Shown one piece after another: positions 1-8,684 of a stretch of 29,824 nt of DNA; position 1 is the stretch's first letter, and each line of letters opens with the position of its first letter. Source of the stretch: a virus (taxonomy: Duplodnaviria > Heunggongvirae > Uroviricota > Caudoviricetes); IMG/VR virus record IMGVR_UViG_2609459820_000011, positions 1 through 29,824 of that record, one strand, 5' to 3'. The notes beneath the pieces were generated by a model that was not told the origin of the DNA, ran no database searches, and worked only from the letters and a program-made list of their open reading frames with translations. The position numbers and the translations under genes were made by a program.

Positions 1-1314
1 TTAACTTACTGATTTTAATAAGCCTCTGGTGTCACTTTGGTGACTATGGGGCATCATTGGGACATAATCTGTCAGCTTCTGATTCAGCATTGCGATCTGT
101 TCTGCATTGCTGTCAGTCATCCATGCTCCGTATACATTGAATACCATCTGGGCACTTGCATGGCCCATCTGGCTGGCAATGAAGCTTGGGTTTGCTCCGG
201 CAGATAATGACCAGCACGCATAAGTGTGTCGTGACTGGTATGCCTTTCGATGCCTGATCCCTGCACGCTTAATGGCTGTTTCCCATGAGTCACCTACAGA
301 ATCGACTTTGTAGACAAAACCTACCTGTTCGCTTTTTCTAACCACTTGAGGGTTAAACACGAAAGTACATTCATGGTTCACTGAACGTCCATATTCACGT
401 AGTTGCACCTTGATGTTGTACTGCTTACCCAGTCTTGTCATTTCAGCCTGATTTTTCAGGACACTGATAGCGGGCTGGATAAGGTGCACAACCCTGTTTG
501 TGCTTGCTTCAGTTTTCGGTAGAGTGAACTCACCAAGTTTCGTATAATTGCGCCTGATGGTAATTGTTCCTGCCTTCAGATCGATATCTTCCCAGGCCAG
601 GGAGACCAGTTCACCGTGACGCATTCCTGTGTACACAGCCAATGACCACAGGTTTTTCGTCTGCTGATGTCGGCAAGCATCTATCAGGCGAATAAATTCG
701 TCACGAGTTAGCGGATCTGGCTCTGCCCTGGCTCTTTTAAGAGGCTTAATTCCCTGGAAGGGATTTGCTTCTAAGTAACCGTGATCTGCAGCAAACTGAA
801 ACATTCCAGCGATTGTCGTCATGTAATAATTTACAGTAACGACGCTCCGTCCTTTTGCTGCTGCTTTGTTTTTCGTTGAATTCTGATACCCGGTAAGCAA
901 ATCTTTCCTGATATACAGCAATTCCTCTTTGGTTACCGATGACACCAGTCTACTGCCTCCAATTTTCGGAACCATCGTTCTTGCAACGGATTCATAGCGA
1001 TTGAATGCATTTGCAGAGATTTCCATTCGTTTCAGATCCAGCCACTTTTCTTCAAGTTCCTTCACCGTAATTTCTTTTTTACTTACCCCAAAAGCCTGAA
1101 GGTTGGGGGAGTCAGGGAACTGTGCAGCATAATCAAAGCTTCCTGTGCGGATGGCAAAACATACTGATGTCCGCAGTTCCCCGGCGATCTTCCTGTTCTT
1201 GGCAGTGTCAGGGACACCAAGATTTTCCCTGACACGTTTACCTTTAAAATTAAACCAGATGCGTAATGTGCCGCCGTGGTTTTCGACGCCTGTTGGATAT
1301 TTGACTTTATCCAT
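1..1314 (-). CDS. int: Phage integrase, tyrosine recombinase family; its 3' end lies at the window edge, so attL is probably just outside
   Basis: 437-aa ORF with GGAGG RBS 7 nt upstream of the ATG; C-terminal region shows tyrosine-recombinase-like motifs (TGMRHGEL, RHTYA, GH...VYGAW); sits at the prophage end next to a xis-like gene. Confidence 0.9.
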   Translation of the reverse strand: MDKVKYPTGVENHGGTLRIWFNFKGKRVRENLGVPDTAKNRKIAGELRTSVCFAIRTGSFDYAAQFPDSPNLQAFGVSKKEITVKELEEKWLDLKRMEISANAFNRYESVARTMVPKIGGSRLVSSVTKEELLYIRKDLLTGYQNSTKNKAAAKGRSVVTVNYYMTTIAGMFQFAADHGYLEANPFQGIKPLKRARAEPDPLTRDEFIRLIDACRHQQTKNLWSLAVYTGMRHGELVSLAWEDIDLKAGTITIRRNYTKLGEFTLPKTEASTNRVVHLIQPAISVLKNQAEMTRLGKQYNIKVQLREYGRSVNHECTFVFNPQVVRKSEQVGFVYKVDSVGDSWETAIKRAGIRHRKAYQSRHTYACWSLSAGANPSFIASQMGHASAQMVFNVYGAWMTDSNAEQIAMLNQKLTDYVPMMPHSHQSDTRGLLKSVS

Positions 1315-2879: not shown

Positions 2880-3416
2880 TCACTCTCCTTTGATACGAAT
2901 GTCAGCGACGCGTAATGCGTGTTCTAGGTCAATCAGGTAAAGCCAACTGCCATTTTCTTTAGGTATCATGACTTGTCGCTCATCTGCATTTATCGGGTGT
3001 CCATATCGAAGGTCGTAGCGAGTCGGTAATTGAACTTCCCGCGCTTCCAGTTCAGCAATACGCTTGCACCCATCAGAGATAACTCCCTCGTAATACTCGC
3101 GCTGCTCGTTGAGTTTTGATTTTGCTGCTTCAAGCTCAACGCGCAGCTTCCCAACCGTAAGCGCAATATCCTCGTTCTCCTGGTCGCGGCGTTTGATGTA
3201 TTGCTGGTTTCTTTCCCGTTCATCCAGTAGTGCCAGCACGGTTTCTGGTCCGGTCAGAAATTTGAAGGCATTGAGCGCATCAATATCCACACCGTAATCT
3301 TTAAGTTCCTGTTCACTTAACAAATCATCATCAGCTGGCAACATTAACAGGCGTTCCATTGCTGGAATTGCACGTTCCGCCACCTCACGCAGTGACTGGT
3401 AATTAATTTCGCTCAC
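2880..3416 (-). CDS. Ea22-like (Ead/Ea22 family) coiled-coil protein, paralog 1
   Basis: GTG start preceded by AAGGAGG; start overlaps the upstream stop (GTGA); N-terminus MSEINYQSLREVAE parallels the neighbouring paralog; central coiled-coil-like region. Confidence 0.6.
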   Translation of the reverse strand: MSEINYQSLREVAERAIPAMERLLMLPADDDLLSEQELKDYGVDIDALNAFKFLTGPETVLALLDERERNQQYIKRRDQENEDIALTVGKLRVELEAAKSKLNEQREYYEGVISDGCKRIAELEAREVQLPTRYDLRYGHPINADERQVMIPKENGSWLYLIDLEHALRVADIRIKGE

Positions 3417-4099
3417 TGGTTGCCTCCTTTGCGAAGCTGGGCAGCAAAGTCAACTAACCACTCAGTCATTTCAACCTTCCCTACCAGGTCTGAACCAGGG
3501 TGCATACAGCAATCACTCTGCGCCGCTTTGAAATCCTTATACTCATATTCTTGGGCCACCAGATTTTTTGCAGCTTCTATAGCAGCATCCACCCCCTGCG
3601 CCCGGACTTCAGCCAGGAAAGCATCAGTGGTTGGCGTTTCAGGTATCTGTCTCCTCATCCGTTCTATTGCATGATTGAACCCGAAGTCTTCCGCGAGAGA
3701 TACGTCATCCATATTGTCATTGTCATCCTCAATATCCCGTGATTCTGGAATTGCAGACTTTATTCCCGCATTCTCCGCTGTCAGCGCCGCGCACTTGGCC
3801 TCAAGAGCGGCAACCACTTCCTGATGGTCTTTGTACTTAACGTATGAGCCGGAGATGTCATCACCTTCGGTGTTTAGCCATGCGTCATTGCAATTCACTG
3901 CGTAGGTTCTGATGCTCATGTTGATGCTCTCCCGCCCCTGACAGACGCCAGGCCAGTCAATAAAGTATCCGCAATGCCTACCCTCAGACGTGCGCGCAGG
4001 ATAAATGCCGTTATGACCCGGCAAAATATATGCTACCCATTCATCTTGCGTTGCCTGTTCCGCCGCCTCGCGCAGTGCCTGATAGTCAATCTTGCTCAC
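3413..4099 (-). CDS. Ea22-like (Ead/Ea22 family) protein, paralog 2
   Basis: GTG start preceded by AAGGAGG; N-terminus MSKIDYQALREAAE; first ~40 nt of the two paralogs are roughly 80 percent identical. Confidence 0.6.
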   Translation of the reverse strand: MSKIDYQALREAAEQATQDEWVAYILPGHNGIYPARTSEGRHCGYFIDWPGVCQGRESINMSIRTYAVNCNDAWLNTEGDDISGSYVKYKDHQEVVAALEAKCAALTAENAGIKSAIPESRDIEDDNDNMDDVSLAEDFGFNHAIERMRRQIPETPTTDAFLAEVRAQGVDAAIEAAKNLVAQEYEYKDFKAAQSDCCMHPGSDLVGKVEMTEWLVDFAAQLRKGGNQ

Positions 4100-4400
4100 T
4101 GGCAGCCTCCTTTGCCGGGATTTCTAACTTTTGAGTGGTTGTATCAAATTCAAACAACTTAACCACGTCATCAAACAGGACATAATCACCATCAGGATCT
4201 TCAGTCATATCTGCGCCACAATCCTGACCGCACGAGTCGCAACCATCCATATCAAGCTCGTATCGCTTCAGGTTTGCGATATTTGATAAATTCAGCGCCA
4301 GTACAGCCAGGTCATAAACCTCTTCGGCAGTGACATCGCTGTTCAGTCCCATTTCATGGCGATATATGATTTTTTCTACTCGTTGTTTTGTGATCGTCAT
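4086..4400 (-). CDS. Hypothetical protein (start taken at MTITKQR; the ORF extends to 4424 with TTG)
   Basis: ORF track 4086..4424; ATG at 4400 chosen by inspection. Confidence 0.45.
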   Translation of the reverse strand: MTITKQRVEKIIYRHEMGLNSDVTAEEVYDLAVLALNLSNIANLKRYELDMDGCDSCGQDCGADMTEDPDGDYVLFDDVVKLFEFDTTTQKLEIPAKEAASEQD

Positions 4401-4671
4401 TTTTCTCTTCACTCCGATATACAAGGATTACTACACCCCCTCTGCTGATTGCGCGAGCTGGATCCCCTGGTTCCATGCCGTCAATTCCGAAGGCTTCGGA
4501 AAACGCATTCATTGCCTTCTGGCGTTCATCCTGCTTACGGCGTTTATTCCATTTTTTCAGGAACAACAGCGACAGCCACCGTCCGCTGCAGAACACGATG
4601 TAAAAATAACCAAGGAGCGCCAGGCCGACATTCAGGGCCGTTTCTATGGTTAGTTGTGAGTCAGTTGCCAT
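4354..4671 (-). CDS. Hypothetical small membrane protein (N-terminal TM helix followed by a basic stretch)
   Basis: ATG start overlaps the upstream stop; hydrophobic segment LNVGLALLGYFYIVFCSG then KKWNKRRKQDERQK; 3' end overlaps the next gene by about 47 nt, which lowers confidence. Confidence 0.4.
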   Translation of the reverse strand: MATDSQLTIETALNVGLALLGYFYIVFCSGRWLSLLFLKKWNKRRKQDERQKAMNAFSEAFGIDGMEPGDPARAISRGGVVILVYRSEEKNDDHKTTSRKNHISP

Positions 4672-4909
4672 TTCTTACCTGTTTAAGTAACTGGTTGAAC
4701 ATAACACTTAGGGGATTGCTGTATCCAAACGGCAGATTGTTTACGCAGTACAGAATCGTTTTGTTTTTTTCTCCAGTTCGTACTATTAACCCATTCCACA
4801 ATAACCGTGATAATTCATTACTGATAGAAGTTGCGCTTCTTCCAAGTGCGAGGGATATATCTTCTCTACTGCAATCTGGATTTTCCTGGATATACTCGAT
4901 AACGGTCAT
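4661..4909 (-). CDS. Putative winged-helix DNA-binding protein (82 aa from MTVIEY)
   Basis: AAAGGGA RBS 6 nt upstream of the ATG at 4909; EDISLALGRSATSISNELSRLLWNGLI resembles a wHTH recognition region (by eye only). Confidence 0.45.
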   Translation of the reverse strand: MTVIEYIQENPDCSREDISLALGRSATSISNELSRLLWNGLIVRTGEKNKTILYCVNNLPFGYSNPLSVMFNQLLKQVRNGN

Positions 4910-4919
4910 GTGGTCCCTT

Positions 4920-5501
4920 TTACTTAATATCTGTTTCGGATTGCATGCCATGAGTATTCATTTCGTTAATAATTTCATCCAGAAGGATTTCAAGCCCTTC
5001 TCGACCCATATCTGAAAGAATGAAACCTTTATCAGGGGAAGTAGTGAGCATTTTCTGATAAAGAAACAGCGCTCTTCCCATTCCTTCAGCTTCGCCGTAT
5101 TTTTGAATTAAATTCCATTCAATATACTGTTGTAAGGCAAATCGAATGGGGCCGGGATATATCGTCATAAACCCATACATCCCGTTATATACCACGGCGT
5201 GTTCAATTGTTCCGTGTTCATTCAGGATATCAATTGTGCCGTTCTTGTCTTCTTCTTCGTTGATGAATGTCGTCACATACAACCATCGCCACTGAGCAAC
5301 CTTCATCTCAACCGGAAGTTTACCCAGTAATCCTGCTTCGTCGGCTTGCGCCAGACACTGAAGGATACGTAAACCTCGCACATTAGGAGTATCGAATTCT
5401 CCGGCATCCAGACGACGTATGGCGTCGTGATAATCAATCGTCATACTGCCAGTTCGTATACCATTGGCTGTTGCTTCAGCCTGGAATTCATCGTATTGCA
5501 T
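4920..5501 (-). CDS. Hypothetical protein (193 aa)
   Basis: ATG with GAGGA RBS; starts 5 nt after the stop of the upstream 60-aa ORF. Confidence 0.6.
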   Translation of the reverse strand: MQYDEFQAEATANGIRTGSMTIDYHDAIRRLDAGEFDTPNVRGLRILQCLAQADEAGLLGKLPVEMKVAQWRWLYVTTFINEEEDKNGTIDILNEHGTIEHAVVYNGMYGFMTIYPGPIRFALQQYIEWNLIQKYGEAEGMGRALFLYQKMLTTSPDKGFILSDMGREGLEILLDEIINEMNTHGMQSETDIK

Positions 5502-5506
5502 GATAT

Positions 5507-5689
5507 TTATTCCTCATCTTCATCTGCTGGTGCAATAACGTCATATCCTGCCCTTTCTGCAATAAACAGGAATGTTGAAAGAGTTCCTACAAGTTCATCG
5601 TCATGAACATGGCGAATGAATATTACTTTCCCGTTTTTGATGGTCAGCAATATTCTGGTTTGTTCGTGTTCTGCTGTTTTCTGATGCAT
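5507..5689 (-). CDS. Hypothetical small acidic protein (60 aa), first gene of a sub-operon
   Basis: GGGAGA RBS 5 nt upstream of the ATG; preceded by a 194-bp non-coding region (5690..5883). Confidence 0.5.
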   Translation of the reverse strand: MHQKTAEHEQTRILLTIKNGKVIFIRHVHDDELVGTLSTFLFIAERAGYDVIAPADEDEE

Positions 5690-5883
5690 TATTATCTCCC
5701 GTATGCTTTACGCAGAAATAAGCAGGCAATATGCATGTAATTTTCACCGTATTGTGCAATAAGGCAGGCGGTCTTGTGTGATGCCATATTCTTTATAAAA
5801 GTCACAATAAAGCCTCCTGTGGTTTAAGGTTGTAACAATCCCCGGCGATAAAACCGCAATAAACGTTCAGGGCATATTTGTTG

Positions 5884-6249
5884 TTATTGCGCTAATTCTT
5901 TTTCGGCAGCAGCTTTTGTATACTCACATGCAAAACTCAGAATTTCGCTGCCGAGTGTTTTCGTTTCGTGATTACTGGACATATGTAATACCTGTGTTGC
6001 ATGCAATAAATGATAAACATTTACCGCAAATGAATCAGGCTCCAGGCAAATGCCTTCGTAATTATCTTGCTGTGAGGTTGTTTCTGTCATTGCTCCTGAA
6101 GTGCATACGAGCCTGTTTTTGACAATTCTCTTTTCTCTAATCACTATATCGGCAACATCTATTGCCTTTACAACCTCCGGGAGAAGTTCCGGGTTTGTAT
6201 AATCAAAGTCATCAACATGGAGAACAGTTATGTTTTCGAACTTTTTCAT
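5884..6249 (-). CDS. Hypothetical protein (121 aa)
   Basis: ATG with GAGGA RBS. Confidence 0.55.
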   Translation of the reverse strand: MKKFENITVLHVDDFDYTNPELLPEVVKAIDVADIVIREKRIVKNRLVCTSGAMTETTSQQDNYEGICLEPDSFAVNVYHLLHATQVLHMSSNHETKTLGSEILSFACEYTKAAAEKELAQ

Positions 6250-6377
6250 GGTTTCCTCAGCTGACTTATATGTTCTGCTATATAGCGAGTCTCAGAAGTG
6301 TTTTCATATTGAGACTGTTTCCGCAATGATTGATAAAAATGTTCGCATGTACCTTGAGGGGCGAAGCGGCGATTATG

Positions 6378-6881
6378 TCACCATTGGTATTGGTTCTTCC
6401 GTAGAAGAGCTTCGCGAGATAAGGGGCAAACTTGTTGAGATGCGTCATGGTGTTGCTGCTCCTCACTTTTTGGTTGCTCCGGAGGAGTAACCTCACCAGT
6501 TAACAGCCACATCGGATCGCAGCCAAGAATATTTGCCAGTGGGATAAGCATACTGATAGTTGGTTCATACTCTCCGCTCTCCCACTGGATGATAATTTCT
6601 TCATCGAGATCGAGCAGCCTGGCGAGTTCGGCGGTTGTTAAGCCGCAGGCTTCGCGTTGGGTGCAAAGACGGTTGTTGATTGCAGAATTTTTGTTCTGTA
6701 AAAGCATTGCTGACGATAGCTTTCTGGATATGCTATTTGTCATATCCCATGCCAGTCCTGCGCATGACTCTATATCGCTAGAGAGCGTAGCATCAGGTGT
6801 TGCTTTTGCTATTAGTGTAATGAGGCTGCCGAGGTTTTTCAGTTCTTCGAGACAGTCAAGAGTTGTAGCTTTATTGATCAT
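6378..6881 (-). CDS. XRE-family HTH protein with the HTH in the C-terminal half; first gene leftward of the left operator cluster (the position N occupies in lambda)
   Basis: C-terminal segment CGLTTAELARLLDLDEEIIIQWESGEYEPTISMLIPLANILGCDPMWLLTG looks like an HTH_XRE motif; N-terminal ~70 aa unassigned. Confidence 0.6.
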   Translation of the reverse strand: MINKATTLDCLEELKNLGSLITLIAKATPDATLSSDIESCAGLAWDMTNSISRKLSSAMLLQNKNSAINNRLCTQREACGLTTAELARLLDLDEEIIIQWESGEYEPTISMLIPLANILGCDPMWLLTGEVTPPEQPKSEEQQHHDASQQVCPLSREALLRKNQYQW

Positions 6882-6886
6882 GAGAT

Positions 6887-6964
6887 GATACCTCAGTTAC
6901 GAACTTTGTTTTATGGTAACTAAGGTATCAAGGTGTGGCAAGTGATTTTTGATACTTTGGTTTC
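6887..6964. promoter_or_regulatory. Left operator/promoter cluster: three 14-bp sites of the same family as OR
   Basis: GATACCTCAGTTAC (6887-6900), GTAACTAAGGTATC (6916-6929), GATACTTTGGTTTC (6951-6964); the last is nearly identical to an OR site. Confidence 0.4.
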
Positions 6965-6984
6965 TTTTTGTGTTTTGTGTCTGG

Positions 6985-7641
6985 TCAGAAAATATCCCAC
7001 CTGGCATCAACCACAACACCTACTATTTCGCAATCATTGTCCATTTCTATGATTGGATATTGTGGATTAAGGGGCTTTAGAAACGCCTTTCCCATGTCAG
7101 AAATATATTTTTTGAATGTTGCTTCATTGGTAGATTTTTTTCTGGCGATGACGTAACACCCTGAAAAAACTTCTTTATCTGGGTTGACAAGGATCGACAT
7201 TCCTTCAGGAAATGTTATTCCTACGGGCGAAGTCATTGAGTCTCCGTGCACTTCCAGCCAGAACCCCCTCTCACCAGCGTATTTTACAGAATGCCTCCAA
7301 TTATCCTGATCATACATGTTGTAGTCATCACCAGAAGTTGCGAATAATCCTGCCTGAACCCAGTTAATTACAGGGTAAGAGTGTGCTGTGTCTCTCTGTG
7401 GGCAGCTCTTAACATTATTTTCCCAATGCTTATCTTTTTCATCTCCGTTCTGAAGCCACTGCGGTGAACACCGCAGTGCAGCTGCAACTTTAAAAAGGGT
7501 GTCACCGTTGAAACTTTTTGTAAGGCCTTGCTCGGCTTTACTTATTGCAACTCTGGTGACCCCAGCTTTTTTAGCCAACGCATCTTGTGTTAACCCAGCT
7601 TTTTGCCGTGCGTTGATGAGACGTTCACCTAAAGACTTCAT
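6985..7641 (-). CDS. cI: Prophage repressor, cI-like (N-terminal HTH plus C-terminal S24 LexA-like peptidase domain)
   Basis: HTH LTQDALAKKAGVTRVAISKAEQG; VHGDSM serine motif and a downstream lysine (ATFKKY); GAGGAG RBS before MKSLGERL; flanked by operator repeats. Confidence 0.85.
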   Translation of the reverse strand: MKSLGERLINARQKAGLTQDALAKKAGVTRVAISKAEQGLTKSFNGDTLFKVAAALRCSPQWLQNGDEKDKHWENNVKSCPQRDTAHSYPVINWVQAGLFATSGDDYNMYDQDNWRHSVKYAGERGFWLEVHGDSMTSPVGITFPEGMSILVNPDKEVFSGCYVIARKKSTNEATFKKYISDMGKAFLKPLNPQYPIIEMDNDCEIVGVVVDARWDIF

Positions 7642-7663
7642 TTTTCTTCTCCTCTCATGGCTG

Positions 7664-7736
7664 TTGATACTAAAGTAACAGAATTTCTTGATACTTTGGG
7701 TTCCTGTGGTTAACATCGTTGGATAACAAAGTATCT
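7664..7736. promoter_or_regulatory. Right operator/promoter cluster (pRM/pR region) with three operator sites
   Basis: GATACTAAAGTAAC (7666-7679), GATACTTTGGGTTC (7690-7703), GATAACAAAGTATC (7722-7735); candidate pR -35 TTGATA (7688-7693) and -10 TAACAT (7711-7716) with a 17-nt spacer. Confidence 0.45.
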
Positions 7737-7752
7737 GGCGTGAGACTAAAGA

Positions 7753-7980
7753 ATGACCCTTTATGAAATATTAAAAATTCAATTTAAAACCAATGCCGCT
7801 ATTGGTCGCAGGTTCCCAAAGAAAGGAAGGCCTCGTGGCAGTCAAGGTGTTGGAAAGTGGAAAACGCGAGGTGTTCCGGAGGATGTTGCCATTCTTTGTC
7901 ATCTGGATCCGAGCATTCCATATACACACCCAAGTCTAGCGAATACAGAAGATGACAAGCCCACAGGAGACCAACAATGA
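7753..7980 (+). CDS. ORF in the cro position, 75 aa, basic, no recognisable HTH; product uncertain
   Basis: First rightward ORF after OR; weak RBS; no Cro-like motif seen by eye. Confidence 0.3.
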   Translation: MTLYEILKIQFKTNAAIGRRFPKKGRPRGSQGVGKWKTRGVPEDVAILCHLDPSIPYTHPSLANTEDDKPTGDQQ

Positions 7981-8684
7981 ACACCGCAATTTTTAACGGC
8001 AAAGCATCCATGACCAGCGTTGAGATCGCAGAGTTGGTGGGAAGCCGACCAGATAGTGTTAAGAGAACTATTGAAACACTGGCTAAAAAGGGAATCATCC
8101 AATTTCCACAGACTGTGGAAATTGAGAATAAACAATCACTTGGGCCTCGCCGATTTTCTAGCGCGTATGTATTCGAAGGTGAACGAGGTAAGCGCGACAG
8201 CATCATTGTCGTCGCACAGCTCTGTCCTGAATTCACAGCTTGCCTGGTAGATCGCTGGCGCGAACTGGAAGAACAGATCCGTAAGCCAATGAGCGAAATC
8301 GAAATGGTTGCCGCGATGGCTCTTGAAGCCGTTCGCCAACAGAAACGGATCACTCAGGTGGAAGAAAAAGTCAGCCACGTTGCTGAAACAGTCGAGCAAA
8401 TTAAAAAGGGCACTATTCGTGAGGGCTATGCCGGATATCGCCAACTGAAAGCAAAAACCGGTTTGTCAGATGATAAATGCCGCAATCTGGTGAACGCCTA
8501 TCAAATTCCTACAGACACACATGAGTTCATGACGCCGGACGGATTGTTGTCACGTCGCGCAATTGTTGCTGTGGAACCGTTTATGGCTGCTTTTTATCGG
8601 GTTATGGAGGAAGCAGAACCGCGAGGGACTCGCTGGTATCACCCGAAAATGGGGTTATTTCAGGTTATTGGTTGGCAGCGATGA
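7977..8684 (+). CDS. Rha-family phage regulatory protein (antirepressor-like), paralog 1
   Basis: N-terminal SMTSVEIAELVGSRPDSVKRTIETL resembles the Phage_pRha domain start; GGAGA RBS. Confidence 0.6.
   Translation: MNTAIFNGKASMTSVEIAELVGSRPDSVKRTIETLAKKGIIQFPQTVEIENKQSLGPRRFSSAYVFEGERGKRDSIIVVAQLCPEFTACLVDRWRELEEQIRKPMSEIEMVAAMALEAVRQQKRITQVEEKVSHVAETVEQIKKGTIREGYAGYRQLKAKTGLSDDKCRNLVNAYQIPTDTHEFMTPDGLLSRRAIVAVEPFMAAFYRVMEEAEPRGTRWYHPKMGLFQVIGWQR

What the first reader, a model, noticed from the sequence alone, without database searches (positions are those of the whole stretch)
4354..5883. Self-contained accessory sub-operon in the early-left region
A 194-bp non-coding region (5690-5883) precedes a tightly packed leftward set: a 60-aa acidic protein with a strong RBS, a 193-aa protein 5 nt downstream, an 82-aa putative winged-helix protein, and a small membrane protein whose start overlaps the previous stop. 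The region between the repressor and integrase of lambdoid phages often carries exclusion or defense genes, and this cluster contains none of the usual recombination genes (exo, bet, gam). A small-protein plus larger-partner layout with its own promoter region is compatible with a toxin-antitoxin or abortive-infection module, but nothing here is recognisable.
Basis: inference. Interest (0 to 1): 0.5.

Follow-up and report, generated by a model that had tools for sequence, protein, structure and literature searches.

The report
Ordinary phage early-left operon segment
The four genes are real but are not a self-contained unit: they are an ordinary stretch of the repressor-controlled early-left operon of a common E. 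coli phiP27-like prophage, made of catalogued accessory genes of unknown function that shuffle independently.

Summary
The four ORFs exist as described, but the "194-bp non-coding region" is mostly coding. It holds a conserved 37-codon microprotein gene (orf37, 5692-5805) that abuts the 60-aa gene, leaving 78 bp of true spacer. That spacer shows no sigma-70 promoter match, terminator, stable RNA fold, Rfam hit or repressor operator. The repressor operators (3+3 sites) flank cI, which places pL at 6882-6984, more than 1 kb upstream. At the 3' end the membrane-protein gene overlaps the next gene by 47 nt, so the operon continues. The window is a phiP27-like prophage at yecE, 100% identical to sequenced E. 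coli chromosomes. All five proteins belong to catalogued families of unknown function (phrog_340, phrog_1515, phrog_1687, DUF4752), with no toxin, antitoxin or defence-system hits. Confident AF2 models of the 193-aa and 60-aa proteins have no solved structural relative. The four genes do not travel together. The constant block is orf37-L07-L06, a reduced form of a six-gene early-left array (orf37, phrog_1737, L07, ParE-like, phrog_1886, L06) conserved in Klebsiella, Citrobacter, Salmonella and Aeromonas prophages. The ParE-like member is absent here. Verdict: ordinary, low interest.

The parts
6886..6964 (-). O_L/pL control region. Three repressor-operator sites (TGATAC-N4-GTTAC type) lie at 6886-6900, 6916-6930 and 6950-6964, around a -35 TTGCCA (6941-6936) / 17 nt / -10 TACCAT (6918-6913).
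   Evidence: All 0-1-mismatch matches in the 29.8-kb window fall here or in the cI-cro gap (7665-7735). There were 15 matches against 5.6 expected, and 0 of 100 shuffles reached 15.
6378..6881 (-). L10, a 167-aa HTH_3 protein and the first gene of the leftward operon.
   Evidence: Pfam HTH_3 at 2.6e-10 and phrog_4739 at 2.6e-98.
5884..6249 (-). L08, a 121-aa protein of unknown function (PGAP calls a 68-aa version starting at 6090).
   Evidence: phrog_5451 at 5e-83; annotations.
5806..5883 (-). True intergenic spacer (78 bp) with the invariant block TTATCGCCGGGGATT at 5837-5851. It is a mosaic joint between modules.
   Evidence: Alignment. dS jumps from 0.10 (L08) to more than 1.3 (orf37/L07/L06) against phiP27. 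No promoter or terminator, RNA fold z = -0.3, no Rfam hit.
5692..5805 (-). orf37, a conserved basic 37-aa microprotein gene (GTG start, SD AGGAGG at 5813-5818). It heads the conserved array.
   Evidence: intact in 91 loci as 20 alleles, dN/dS 0.07-0.23, and at the head of the array in more than 130 distant loci.
5507..5689 (-). L07, a 60-aa acidic protein (pI 5.0) with a beta-hairpin, a helix and an acidic tail; phrog_340.
4920..5501 (-). L06, a 193-aa acidic protein (pI 4.6); phrog_1515. It has an alpha/beta fold with no solved relative, and its C-terminal domain (residues ~109-185) is homologous to phrog_1737.
4661..4909 (-). 82-aa winged-helix (MarR-like) protein; phrog_1687. It is optional in related phages and is not called by PGAP.
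   Evidence: several concordant wHTH hits, all below Pfam cut-offs; 1.5e-24.
4354..4671 (-). DUF4752 protein (105 aa): an N-terminal transmembrane helix at ~12-30, then a basic stretch and a soluble C-terminal domain. It is optional in related phages.
   Evidence: Pfam PF15944 at 125.8 bits against a cut-off of 27; found in 135 phage records and in the nin region of BTP1.
4086..4400 (-). Next operon gene (104 aa, phrog_3126). It overlaps DUF4752 by 47 nt and the Ea22-like gene by 14 nt.

Best explanation
The region is an internal segment of the cI-repressed early-left (pL) operon of a phiP27-like lambdoid prophage integrated next to yecE in E. coli. Inferred mechanism: in the lysogen, the S24/LexA-type cI repressor occupies three operators that bracket pL (6886-6964) and keeps the operon off. 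After SOS-induced cI cleavage, one leftward transcript runs through L10, L08, orf37, L07, L06, wHTH, DUF4752, orf104, the Ea22-like genes and on to xis/int. Abutting or overlapping stops and starts give translational coupling. The genes are individually exchangeable accessory genes of unknown function. L07 and L06 are acidic soluble proteins that most likely act by binding other proteins. The 82-aa protein is a small winged-helix DNA binder. DUF4752 is a single-pass inner-membrane protein. The invariant core orf37-L07-L06 is a reduced derivative of a six-gene early-left array (orf37, phrog_1737, L07, ParE-like, phrog_1886, L06) that keeps the same gene order across several enterobacterial and Aeromonas phage lineages. 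What is shown: gene structure, family membership, operator layout, lack of promoter/terminator signals, and module shuffling. What is inferred: the single transcript, early-lytic timing, and the biochemical roles.
For: Origin: 100% identical to E. coli chromosomes next to yecE/yecN, 99.4% to phage PhiR49_2, with related modules in phiP27 and Stx1a/Stx2a phages. Control region: the 3+3 operator sites occur only beside cI, and the pL hexamers lie between them. Between pL and the cluster there is no terminator-like site on the - strand and no conserved promoter. The 78-bp gap lacks structure, operators and Rfam hits. Gene junctions are +2, +5, +10, -11, -47 and -14 nt. All proteins fall in catalogued phage families. 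Shuffling: orf37+L07+L06 are together in 86 of 86 Escherichia loci, the wHTH is absent in 29, and DUF4752 is further absent in at least 6. A DUF4752 homologue sits in the rightward nin region of BTP1. The six-gene colinear array was found in more than 130 loci. All genes are under purifying selection.
Against: No transcript data were available, so read-through from pL and silence in lysogens are inferred from sequence only. A weak or non-sigma-70 promoter in the spacer cannot be excluded. An invariant G-rich block (TTATCGCCGGGGATT) recurs upstream of orf37 in several lineages and is unexplained. No antitermination system was identified for this phage type. The protein functions remain undetermined.
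Confidence: 0.7

Rival explanations
1. One reading: an independently transcribed accessory module, expressed in lysogens from a promoter in the L08-L07 gap, that acts as a toxin-antitoxin or abortive-infection/exclusion system (small acidic L07 as antitoxin, L06 as toxin or effector).
For: L07 and L06 are tightly linked (5-nt gap) and co-inherited in 86 of 86 Escherichia loci. L07 is small and acidic and lies upstream of a larger partner. The spacer carries an invariant, unexplained sequence block and is a module boundary. L06 has frameshifted alleles in several genomes, as toxin genes sometimes do.
Against: Most of the gap is the orf37 coding sequence. It has no promoter-like hexamers, operator or terminator. 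L07, L06 and DUF4752 have no PADLOC, Pfam, NCBIfam or PDB toxin/antitoxin/defence match. L07 occurs without L06 in 75 or more loci, and L06 occurs without L07 in others. Where both occur outside this clade, they are separated by 2-3 genes. L06 is acidic and its fold is unlike any known toxin.
Confidence: 0.08
2. L07 is the antitoxin-like partner of the ParE-like (PF24732) protein that follows it in the ancestral array. The phiP27 lineage lost the toxin and kept L07 as an orphan, for example as an anti-addiction factor or repurposed to bind L06.
For: In more than 130 loci L07 lies directly upstream of a bona fide ParE-like domain gene (66-71 bits against a cut-off of 24.4), and in the checked case (L095) the two genes overlap by 29 nt. 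This is the canonical antitoxin-toxin order. L07 is small and acidic with a disordered acidic tail.
Against: The ParE-like gene exists without L07 in L087 and in the isolated Aeromonas phage AsXd-1, where phrog_1737 precedes it. The whole operon is tightly packed, so adjacency carries little information. L07 has no recognised antitoxin or DNA-binding fold. No toxicity data exist for PF24732 proteins in the searched literature. The window has no ParE-like gene.
Confidence: 0.1
3. L07 and L06 are early anti-defence or host-takeover factors, analogous in role to lambda Gam/Ral or T7 Ocr, that neutralise a host system during lytic growth.
For: They occupy the early-left position where lambda encodes gam, ral, kil and cIII. 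Both are strongly acidic (pI 5.0 and 4.6; net charge -6 and -14), as many DNA-mimic or inhibitor proteins are. They are under purifying selection. They are compatible with pL-driven early expression.
Confidence: 0.2

Closest known systems
Lambda early-left (pL) operon and its accessory 'ea'/exo-xis-region genes
   Same: The position is the same: between the repressor and xis/int, on the int strand. It is repressor-controlled through three operators next to cI. It is a string of small, tightly packed, individually exchangeable genes, including Ea22-like genes just downstream.
   Different: No N, cIII, kil, gam, bet, exo or ral homologues are present. The first genes are an HTH protein (L10) and L08. 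The antitermination mechanism is unknown.
phiP27 ORFs L06/L07/L08 and the equivalent genes of Stx1a/Stx2a yecE-type phages and PhiR49_2
   Same: These are direct orthologues in the same order: 99% identity in PhiR49_2, about 91-95% in Stx1a/Stx2a phages, and 51-65% in phiP27 and ASU11.
   Different: phiP27, ASU11 and the Stx2a phages lack the wHTH and DUF4752 genes, and Stx phages carry a short (66-aa) L08 homologue. Every copy is annotated as a hypothetical protein.
Six-gene early-left array of Klebsiella/Citrobacter/Salmonella/Aeromonas temperate phages (orf37, phrog_1737, phrog_340, PF24732 ParE-like, phrog_1886, phrog_1515)
   Same: The window keeps orf37, L07 (phrog_340) and L06 (phrog_1515) in the same relative order and the same operon position.
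   Different: The window lacks phrog_1737, the ParE-like gene and phrog_1886, so L07 and L06 have become adjacent.
Type II toxin-antitoxin modules (e.g. ParDE)
   Same: A small acidic protein is encoded just upstream of a larger one with near-abutting reading frames. Relatives carry a ParE-like domain gene right after L07.
   Different: The window has no toxin or antitoxin family match, no autoregulatory promoter/operator, and no ParE-like gene, and the pair is not conserved outside one clade.

Membership tests
Lambdoid pL early-left operon | Genes lie between the repressor gene and xis/int, on the int strand | tested here: met
   int at 1-1314(-), cI at 6985-7716(-), and all intervening genes on the - strand.
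Lambdoid pL early-left operon | The leftward promoter is flanked by multiple repressor operators that also occur at O_R | tested here: met
   Three sites at 6886-6964 and three at 7665-7735. The motif is enriched (15 against 5.6 expected) and the best matches occur only there. pL-like hexamers lie at 6941-6913.
Lambdoid pL early-left operon | Uninterrupted polycistronic arrangement (no internal terminator or conserved promoter) | tested here: met
   No - strand terminator between 6881 and 4600 and no promoter-like site in 5690-5883. The promoter-like site in L08 is not conserved. Junctions are 2-10 nt or overlapping. This is sequence-level evidence only.
Lambdoid pL early-left operon | Transcribed only after repressor inactivation | not testable with these tools
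   No transcriptome for this phage type was found.
Type II toxin-antitoxin system | Toxin belongs to a recognised toxin family or fold | tested here: not met
Type II toxin-antitoxin system | Antitoxin has a recognised antitoxin or DNA-binding fold | tested here: not met
Type II toxin-antitoxin system | The two genes form a conserved bicistronic pair across lineages | tested here: not met
   They are adjacent only in the Escherichia phiP27 clade. Elsewhere each occurs alone, or they are separated by 2-3 genes.
Type II toxin-antitoxin system | Own autoregulated promoter with operator | tested here: not met
   No promoter-like site in the 78-bp spacer. The imperfect dyad in the invariant block is unexplained.
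Type II toxin-antitoxin system | Toxicity of one partner, neutralised by the other | not testable with these tools
   This needs expression experiments.
Known anti-phage defence systems (PADLOC-DB v2) | At least one protein matches a defence-system model | tested here: not met
   L07, L06, DUF4752, orf104 and L08 have no hits. The wHTH matches only the generic wHTH portion of CARF/CasR/Csa3 models.
Known lambda early-left functions (Kil, CIII, Ral, Gam, Ssb/Ea10, SieB) | Sequence-family match | tested here: not met
   PHROGs and Pfam scans of all proteins, including orf37, return none of these.
DUF4752 (PF15944) | Score above the Pfam gathering threshold | tested here: met
   125.8 bits against 27, covering profile positions 2-84 of 84.
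MarR family / winged-helix regulators | Score above the Pfam gathering threshold | tested here: inconclusive
   MarR_2 scores 23.0 bits against a cut-off of 27. Nine concordant sub-threshold wHTH families hit the same residues, and phrog_1687 ('MarR family') scores 1.5e-24. A wHTH fold is likely, but MarR-family membership is not established.
Six-gene early-left array (orf37, 1737, L07, ParE-like, 1886, L06) | Colinear presence of the member families | tested here: inconclusive
   The window has 3 of 6 (orf37, L07, L06) in the correct order. phrog_1737, the ParE-like gene and phrog_1886 are absent. It is a reduced derivative.

The most novel reading that the evidence does not exclude
The orf37, phrog_1737, L07, ParE-like, phrog_1886, L06 array is one functional system: a phage-borne, multi-component toxin-antitoxin-like or host-manipulation complex conserved across genera. 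Under this reading, L07 and/or the phrog_1737/L06 C-terminal domain neutralise or regulate the ParE-like protein. The window would then carry a toxin-less remnant whose retained L07/L06 act as orphan 'anti-toxin' or immunity factors against related phages.
Probability: 0.08. Interest if true: 0.5.

Novelty: already known. Interest (0 to 1): 0.2.

Why it matters
As it stands this matters little. It is a typical mosaic stretch of a lambdoid early-left operon, identical to sequence already present in hundreds of E. coli genomes, and every protein is in a catalogued family of unknown function. The useful by-products are practical. First, a conserved 37-aa microprotein gene and an 82-aa wHTH gene are missed by RefSeq annotation. 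Second, L07 and L06 belong to a six-gene, order-conserved early-left array that includes a ParE-like gene in other genera. This gives a defined set of co-inherited unknown genes that could be tackled together in the inducible phage PhiR49_2 or in Klebsiella phages. Third, L06 is a confidently modelled fold with no solved relative.

Tried and rejected
(1) Function by sequence. Pfam, PHROGs, NCBIfam and PADLOC scans and PDB sequence/profile searches gave only families of unknown function.

(3) L07 as a detached C-terminal domain of ORF6N/Ant-like proteins. This was suggested by weak PHROG hits and by Ant-like neighbours of distant L06 genes. BLASTP and HMM searches of those neighbours found no L07-like domain, and the extended L07 search found only stand-alone 60-80-aa proteins. 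Rejected.

(4) L08 as a homologue of the ~120-aa gene upstream of L07 elsewhere, or of L06. No similarity was found.

(5) A promoter in the gap or inside L08. The gap has none, and the 10/12 match at 6090-6061 is not conserved in Stx phages with the same module.

(6) An RNA element in the gap. The fold has z = -0.3 and Rfam has no hit.

(7) Domain fusions in long L06-family hits. These were uninformative, and P0151 is a tail-like protein with only a marginal local match.

(8) Literature. Searches for DUF4752, PF24732 and phiP27 L06/L07 returned nothing, and the phiP27 genome paper is not held.

Full report
**What the window is.** The 2.1 kb around the finding is 100% identical to two E. coli chromosomes and 99.4% identical to the induced phage PhiR49_2. 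Parts of it are shared at about 93% with Stx1a/Stx2a-converting phages and at about 80% with phiP27. In the RefSeq chromosome the prophage sits next to cmoA-yecN-yecE, with integrase, excisionase, DUF4222, DUF551 and Ea22-like genes to the left, and a LexA/S24-type repressor, Rha-family regulators and replication genes to the right. Some match to the region occurs in 856 of 5,426 complete E. coli genomes. In phiP27's own ORF names, the 193-aa protein is L06, the 60-aa protein is L07, the upstream 121-aa gene is L08, the HTH gene is L10 and the repressor is L11.

**Checking the observation.** The four ORFs are present as described:
- L07: 5507-5689(-), preceded by GGGAGA.
- L06: 4920-5501(-), 5 nt further on.
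- wHTH: 82 aa from the ATG at 4909 to the stop at 4661.
- DUF4752: a 105-aa protein at 4354-4671(-), whose ATG overlaps the wHTH stop by 11 nt.

The "194-bp non-coding region" is wrong. It contains a 37-codon ORF (5692-5805) with a GTG start and AGGAGG 7 nt upstream. This ORF starts with ATG in phiP27, ASU11 and the Stx phages, differs from them largely at third codon positions, and is intact in 91 loci as 20 alleles. Its dN/dS is 0.07-0.23, and it is annotated as a CDS in Stx1_14040 and PhiR49_2. Its stop lies 2 nt from the L07 start. The true spacer is therefore 78 bp (5806-5883), shorter than the 128-bp L10-L08 gap. At the other end, the next gene (4086-4400) begins 47 nt inside DUF4752 and overlaps the following Ea22-like gene, so 4354 is not an operon boundary.

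**Is there a separate promoter?** A consensus scan finds no sigma-70-like site and no terminator on the - strand in 5690-5883. The spacer RNA folds no better than shuffled sequence (z = -0.3), and Rfam finds nothing in 3500-8000. The best promoter-like match in the area (ATGACA-18-GATAAT, 6090-6061, inside L08) is not preserved in the Stx phages that carry the same downstream module.

By contrast, an operator motif (TGATAC-N4-GTTAC type) occurs three times between the cI stop and L10 (6886-6964) and three times in the cI-cro gap (7665-7735). All 0-1-mismatch matches in the window are in these two clusters. A -35 TTGCCA / 17 nt / -10 TACCAT lies between the left-hand sites. This is the classical O_L/pL arrangement. 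The finding's genes lie more than 1 kb downstream of it, behind L10 and L08. I therefore infer one repressor-controlled leftward transcript. This is sequence inference; no transcript data were available.

**What the proteins are.** All belong to catalogued phage families of unknown function:
- L07: phrog_340 (4e-22).
- L06: phrog_1515 (5e-90).
- wHTH: phrog_1687, "MarR family" (1.5e-24), plus nine concordant sub-threshold Pfam wHTH hits.
- Membrane protein: Pfam DUF4752 (125.8 bits) and phrog_667.

L07, L06 and DUF4752 have no hit in PADLOC or NCBIfam and no sequence relative in the PDB, even with profiles. None matches Kil, CIII, Ral, Gam, Ssb or SieB families.

L07 and L06 are acidic (pI 5.0 and 4.6). 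orf37, the wHTH and DUF4752 are basic. DUF4752 has one hydrophobic helix at about residues 12-30, followed by a Lys/Arg-rich stretch. All genes show purifying selection. Several database L06 alleles are frameshifted.

**Is it one module?** No. In 86 Escherichia loci that carry L06, orf37+L07+L06 are always present and colinear. The wHTH is missing in 29 of them, and DUF4752 is missing in at least 6 further loci that keep the wHTH. DUF4752 occurs in 135 phage records, most of them without L06/L07, and in BTP1 it sits in the rightward nin region.

L07 and L06 are themselves separable:
- Distant L06 relatives (34-43% identity; 101 clusters found by exhaustive profile search) have other upstream neighbours.
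- Citrobacter/Salmonella L07 relatives have no L06.
- In Klebsiella phage P18-100 the two genes are 1.7 kb apart.

**The wider pattern.** Local HMM searches over 150 loci from other genera show a colinear early-left array: orf37, phrog_1737, L07, a PF24732 ParE-like domain protein, phrog_1886, L06. It is complete in 52 loci and truncated from the 3' end in about 70 more, always in the same order. L06's C-terminal domain (residues ~109-185) is homologous to phrog_1737. The hhalign probability is 91% (E = 9e-7) with a diverse profile, but only 40% with a shallow one.

The window, and all 86 phiP27-type loci, lack phrog_1737, the ParE-like gene and phrog_1886.

The 78-bp spacer is a mosaic joint. 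Against phiP27, dS is 0.10 for L08 but more than 1.3 for orf37/L07/L06. It carries an invariant G-rich block (TTATCGCCGGGGATT, 5837-5851), and loose counterparts of this block recur upstream of orf37 in several lineages. That element remains unexplained.

**Verdict.** The ORFs are real, but the "self-contained sub-operon with its own promoter" is not supported, and neither is a TA/Abi function. The region is an ordinary, already sequenced and catalogued part of a lambdoid early-left operon whose gene products remain uncharacterised.

The most novel reading not excluded is that the six-gene array is one functional, ParE-like-containing system of which this prophage keeps a toxin-less remnant. 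It rests only on gene order. It is weakened by ParE-like genes that occur without L07 (L087 and Aeromonas phage AsXd-1).

Noticed in passing
window 5692-5805 (-): A conserved 37-aa basic microprotein gene (orf37, MTFI...LRKAYGR). PGAP does not annotate it in the RefSeq E. coli chromosome, and it matches no PHROG or Pfam family. Homologues at 47-54% identity head the same array in Citrobacter, Salmonella, Klebsiella and Aeromonas prophages, often in unannotated gaps.
   Followed up: yes
window 4661-4909 (-): The 82-aa wHTH gene is not called by PGAP in any of the listed RefSeq E. coli genomes (a gap sits between the DUF4752 and L06 CDSs). It is conserved, is annotated as 'MarR family' in Stx1 phages, and has dN/dS 0.28.
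   Followed up: partly
window 6886-6964 and 7665-7735: There are two clusters of three repressor-operator sites (TGATAC-N4-GTTAC type), giving an O_L/O_R layout around cI. The candidate pL is -35 TTGCCA / -10 TACCAT at 6941-6913.
   Followed up: yes
window 5837-5851 (-): An invariant block, TTATCGCCGGGGATT, lies in the 78-bp L08-orf37 spacer. Similar G-rich elements sit about 35-45 nt upstream of orf37 in several divergent lineages. It coincides with a mosaic recombination joint, and its function is unknown.
   Followed up: partly
L095:4185-4406, L087:708-932, L101:2346-2567 (relatives, not in the window): A 73-74-aa PF24732 'ParE-like toxin domain' gene (phrog_1525) sits directly after L07 (or after phrog_1737) in more than 130 related early-left arrays. 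It is absent from the window and from all phiP27-type loci.
   Followed up: partly
window 4920-5240 (-) (L06 residues ~109-185): The C-terminal domain of L06 is remotely homologous to the ~120-aa phrog_1737 family, which precedes L07 in other genera (hhalign probability 91%).
   Followed up: yes
protein clusters P0016, P0025, P0027, P0031, P0033-P0035: Multiple frameshifted or truncated L06 alleles occur in E. coli genomes, suggesting that the gene decays in some resident prophages.
   Followed up: no
window 5884-6249 (-): The start of L08 is ambiguous. A 121-aa ORF matches phrog_5451 end to end, but PGAP calls a 68-aa version from the ATG at 6090. Stx phages carry only a 66-aa homologue of the C-terminal half.
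   Followed up: partly
window 6230-6490 (+): An 86-aa ORF on the opposite strand spans the L10-L08 gap and overlaps the 3' end of L10, in the position of phiP27 L09. It is not annotated by PGAP, and whether it is real is unknown.
   Followed up: no
Klebsiella phage records MF695815, MN166823, MK422455, MK416019: L06 homologues there are annotated as '2-polyprenylphenol hydrolase/hydroxylase related flavodoxin oxidoreductase'. Pfam and PDB searches give no support for this, so it is probably a propagated mis-annotation.
   Followed up: no
L100 (Salmonella phage BTP1) 2980-3252: The DUF4752 homologue lies in the rightward nin region, between the P helicase and ninB. This shows that the gene moves between the two early operons.
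   Followed up: partly
window 2880-3416 and 3413-4099 (-): Two tandem Ea22-like genes follow the cluster. RefSeq marks the distal one as an incomplete pseudogene.
   Followed up: no
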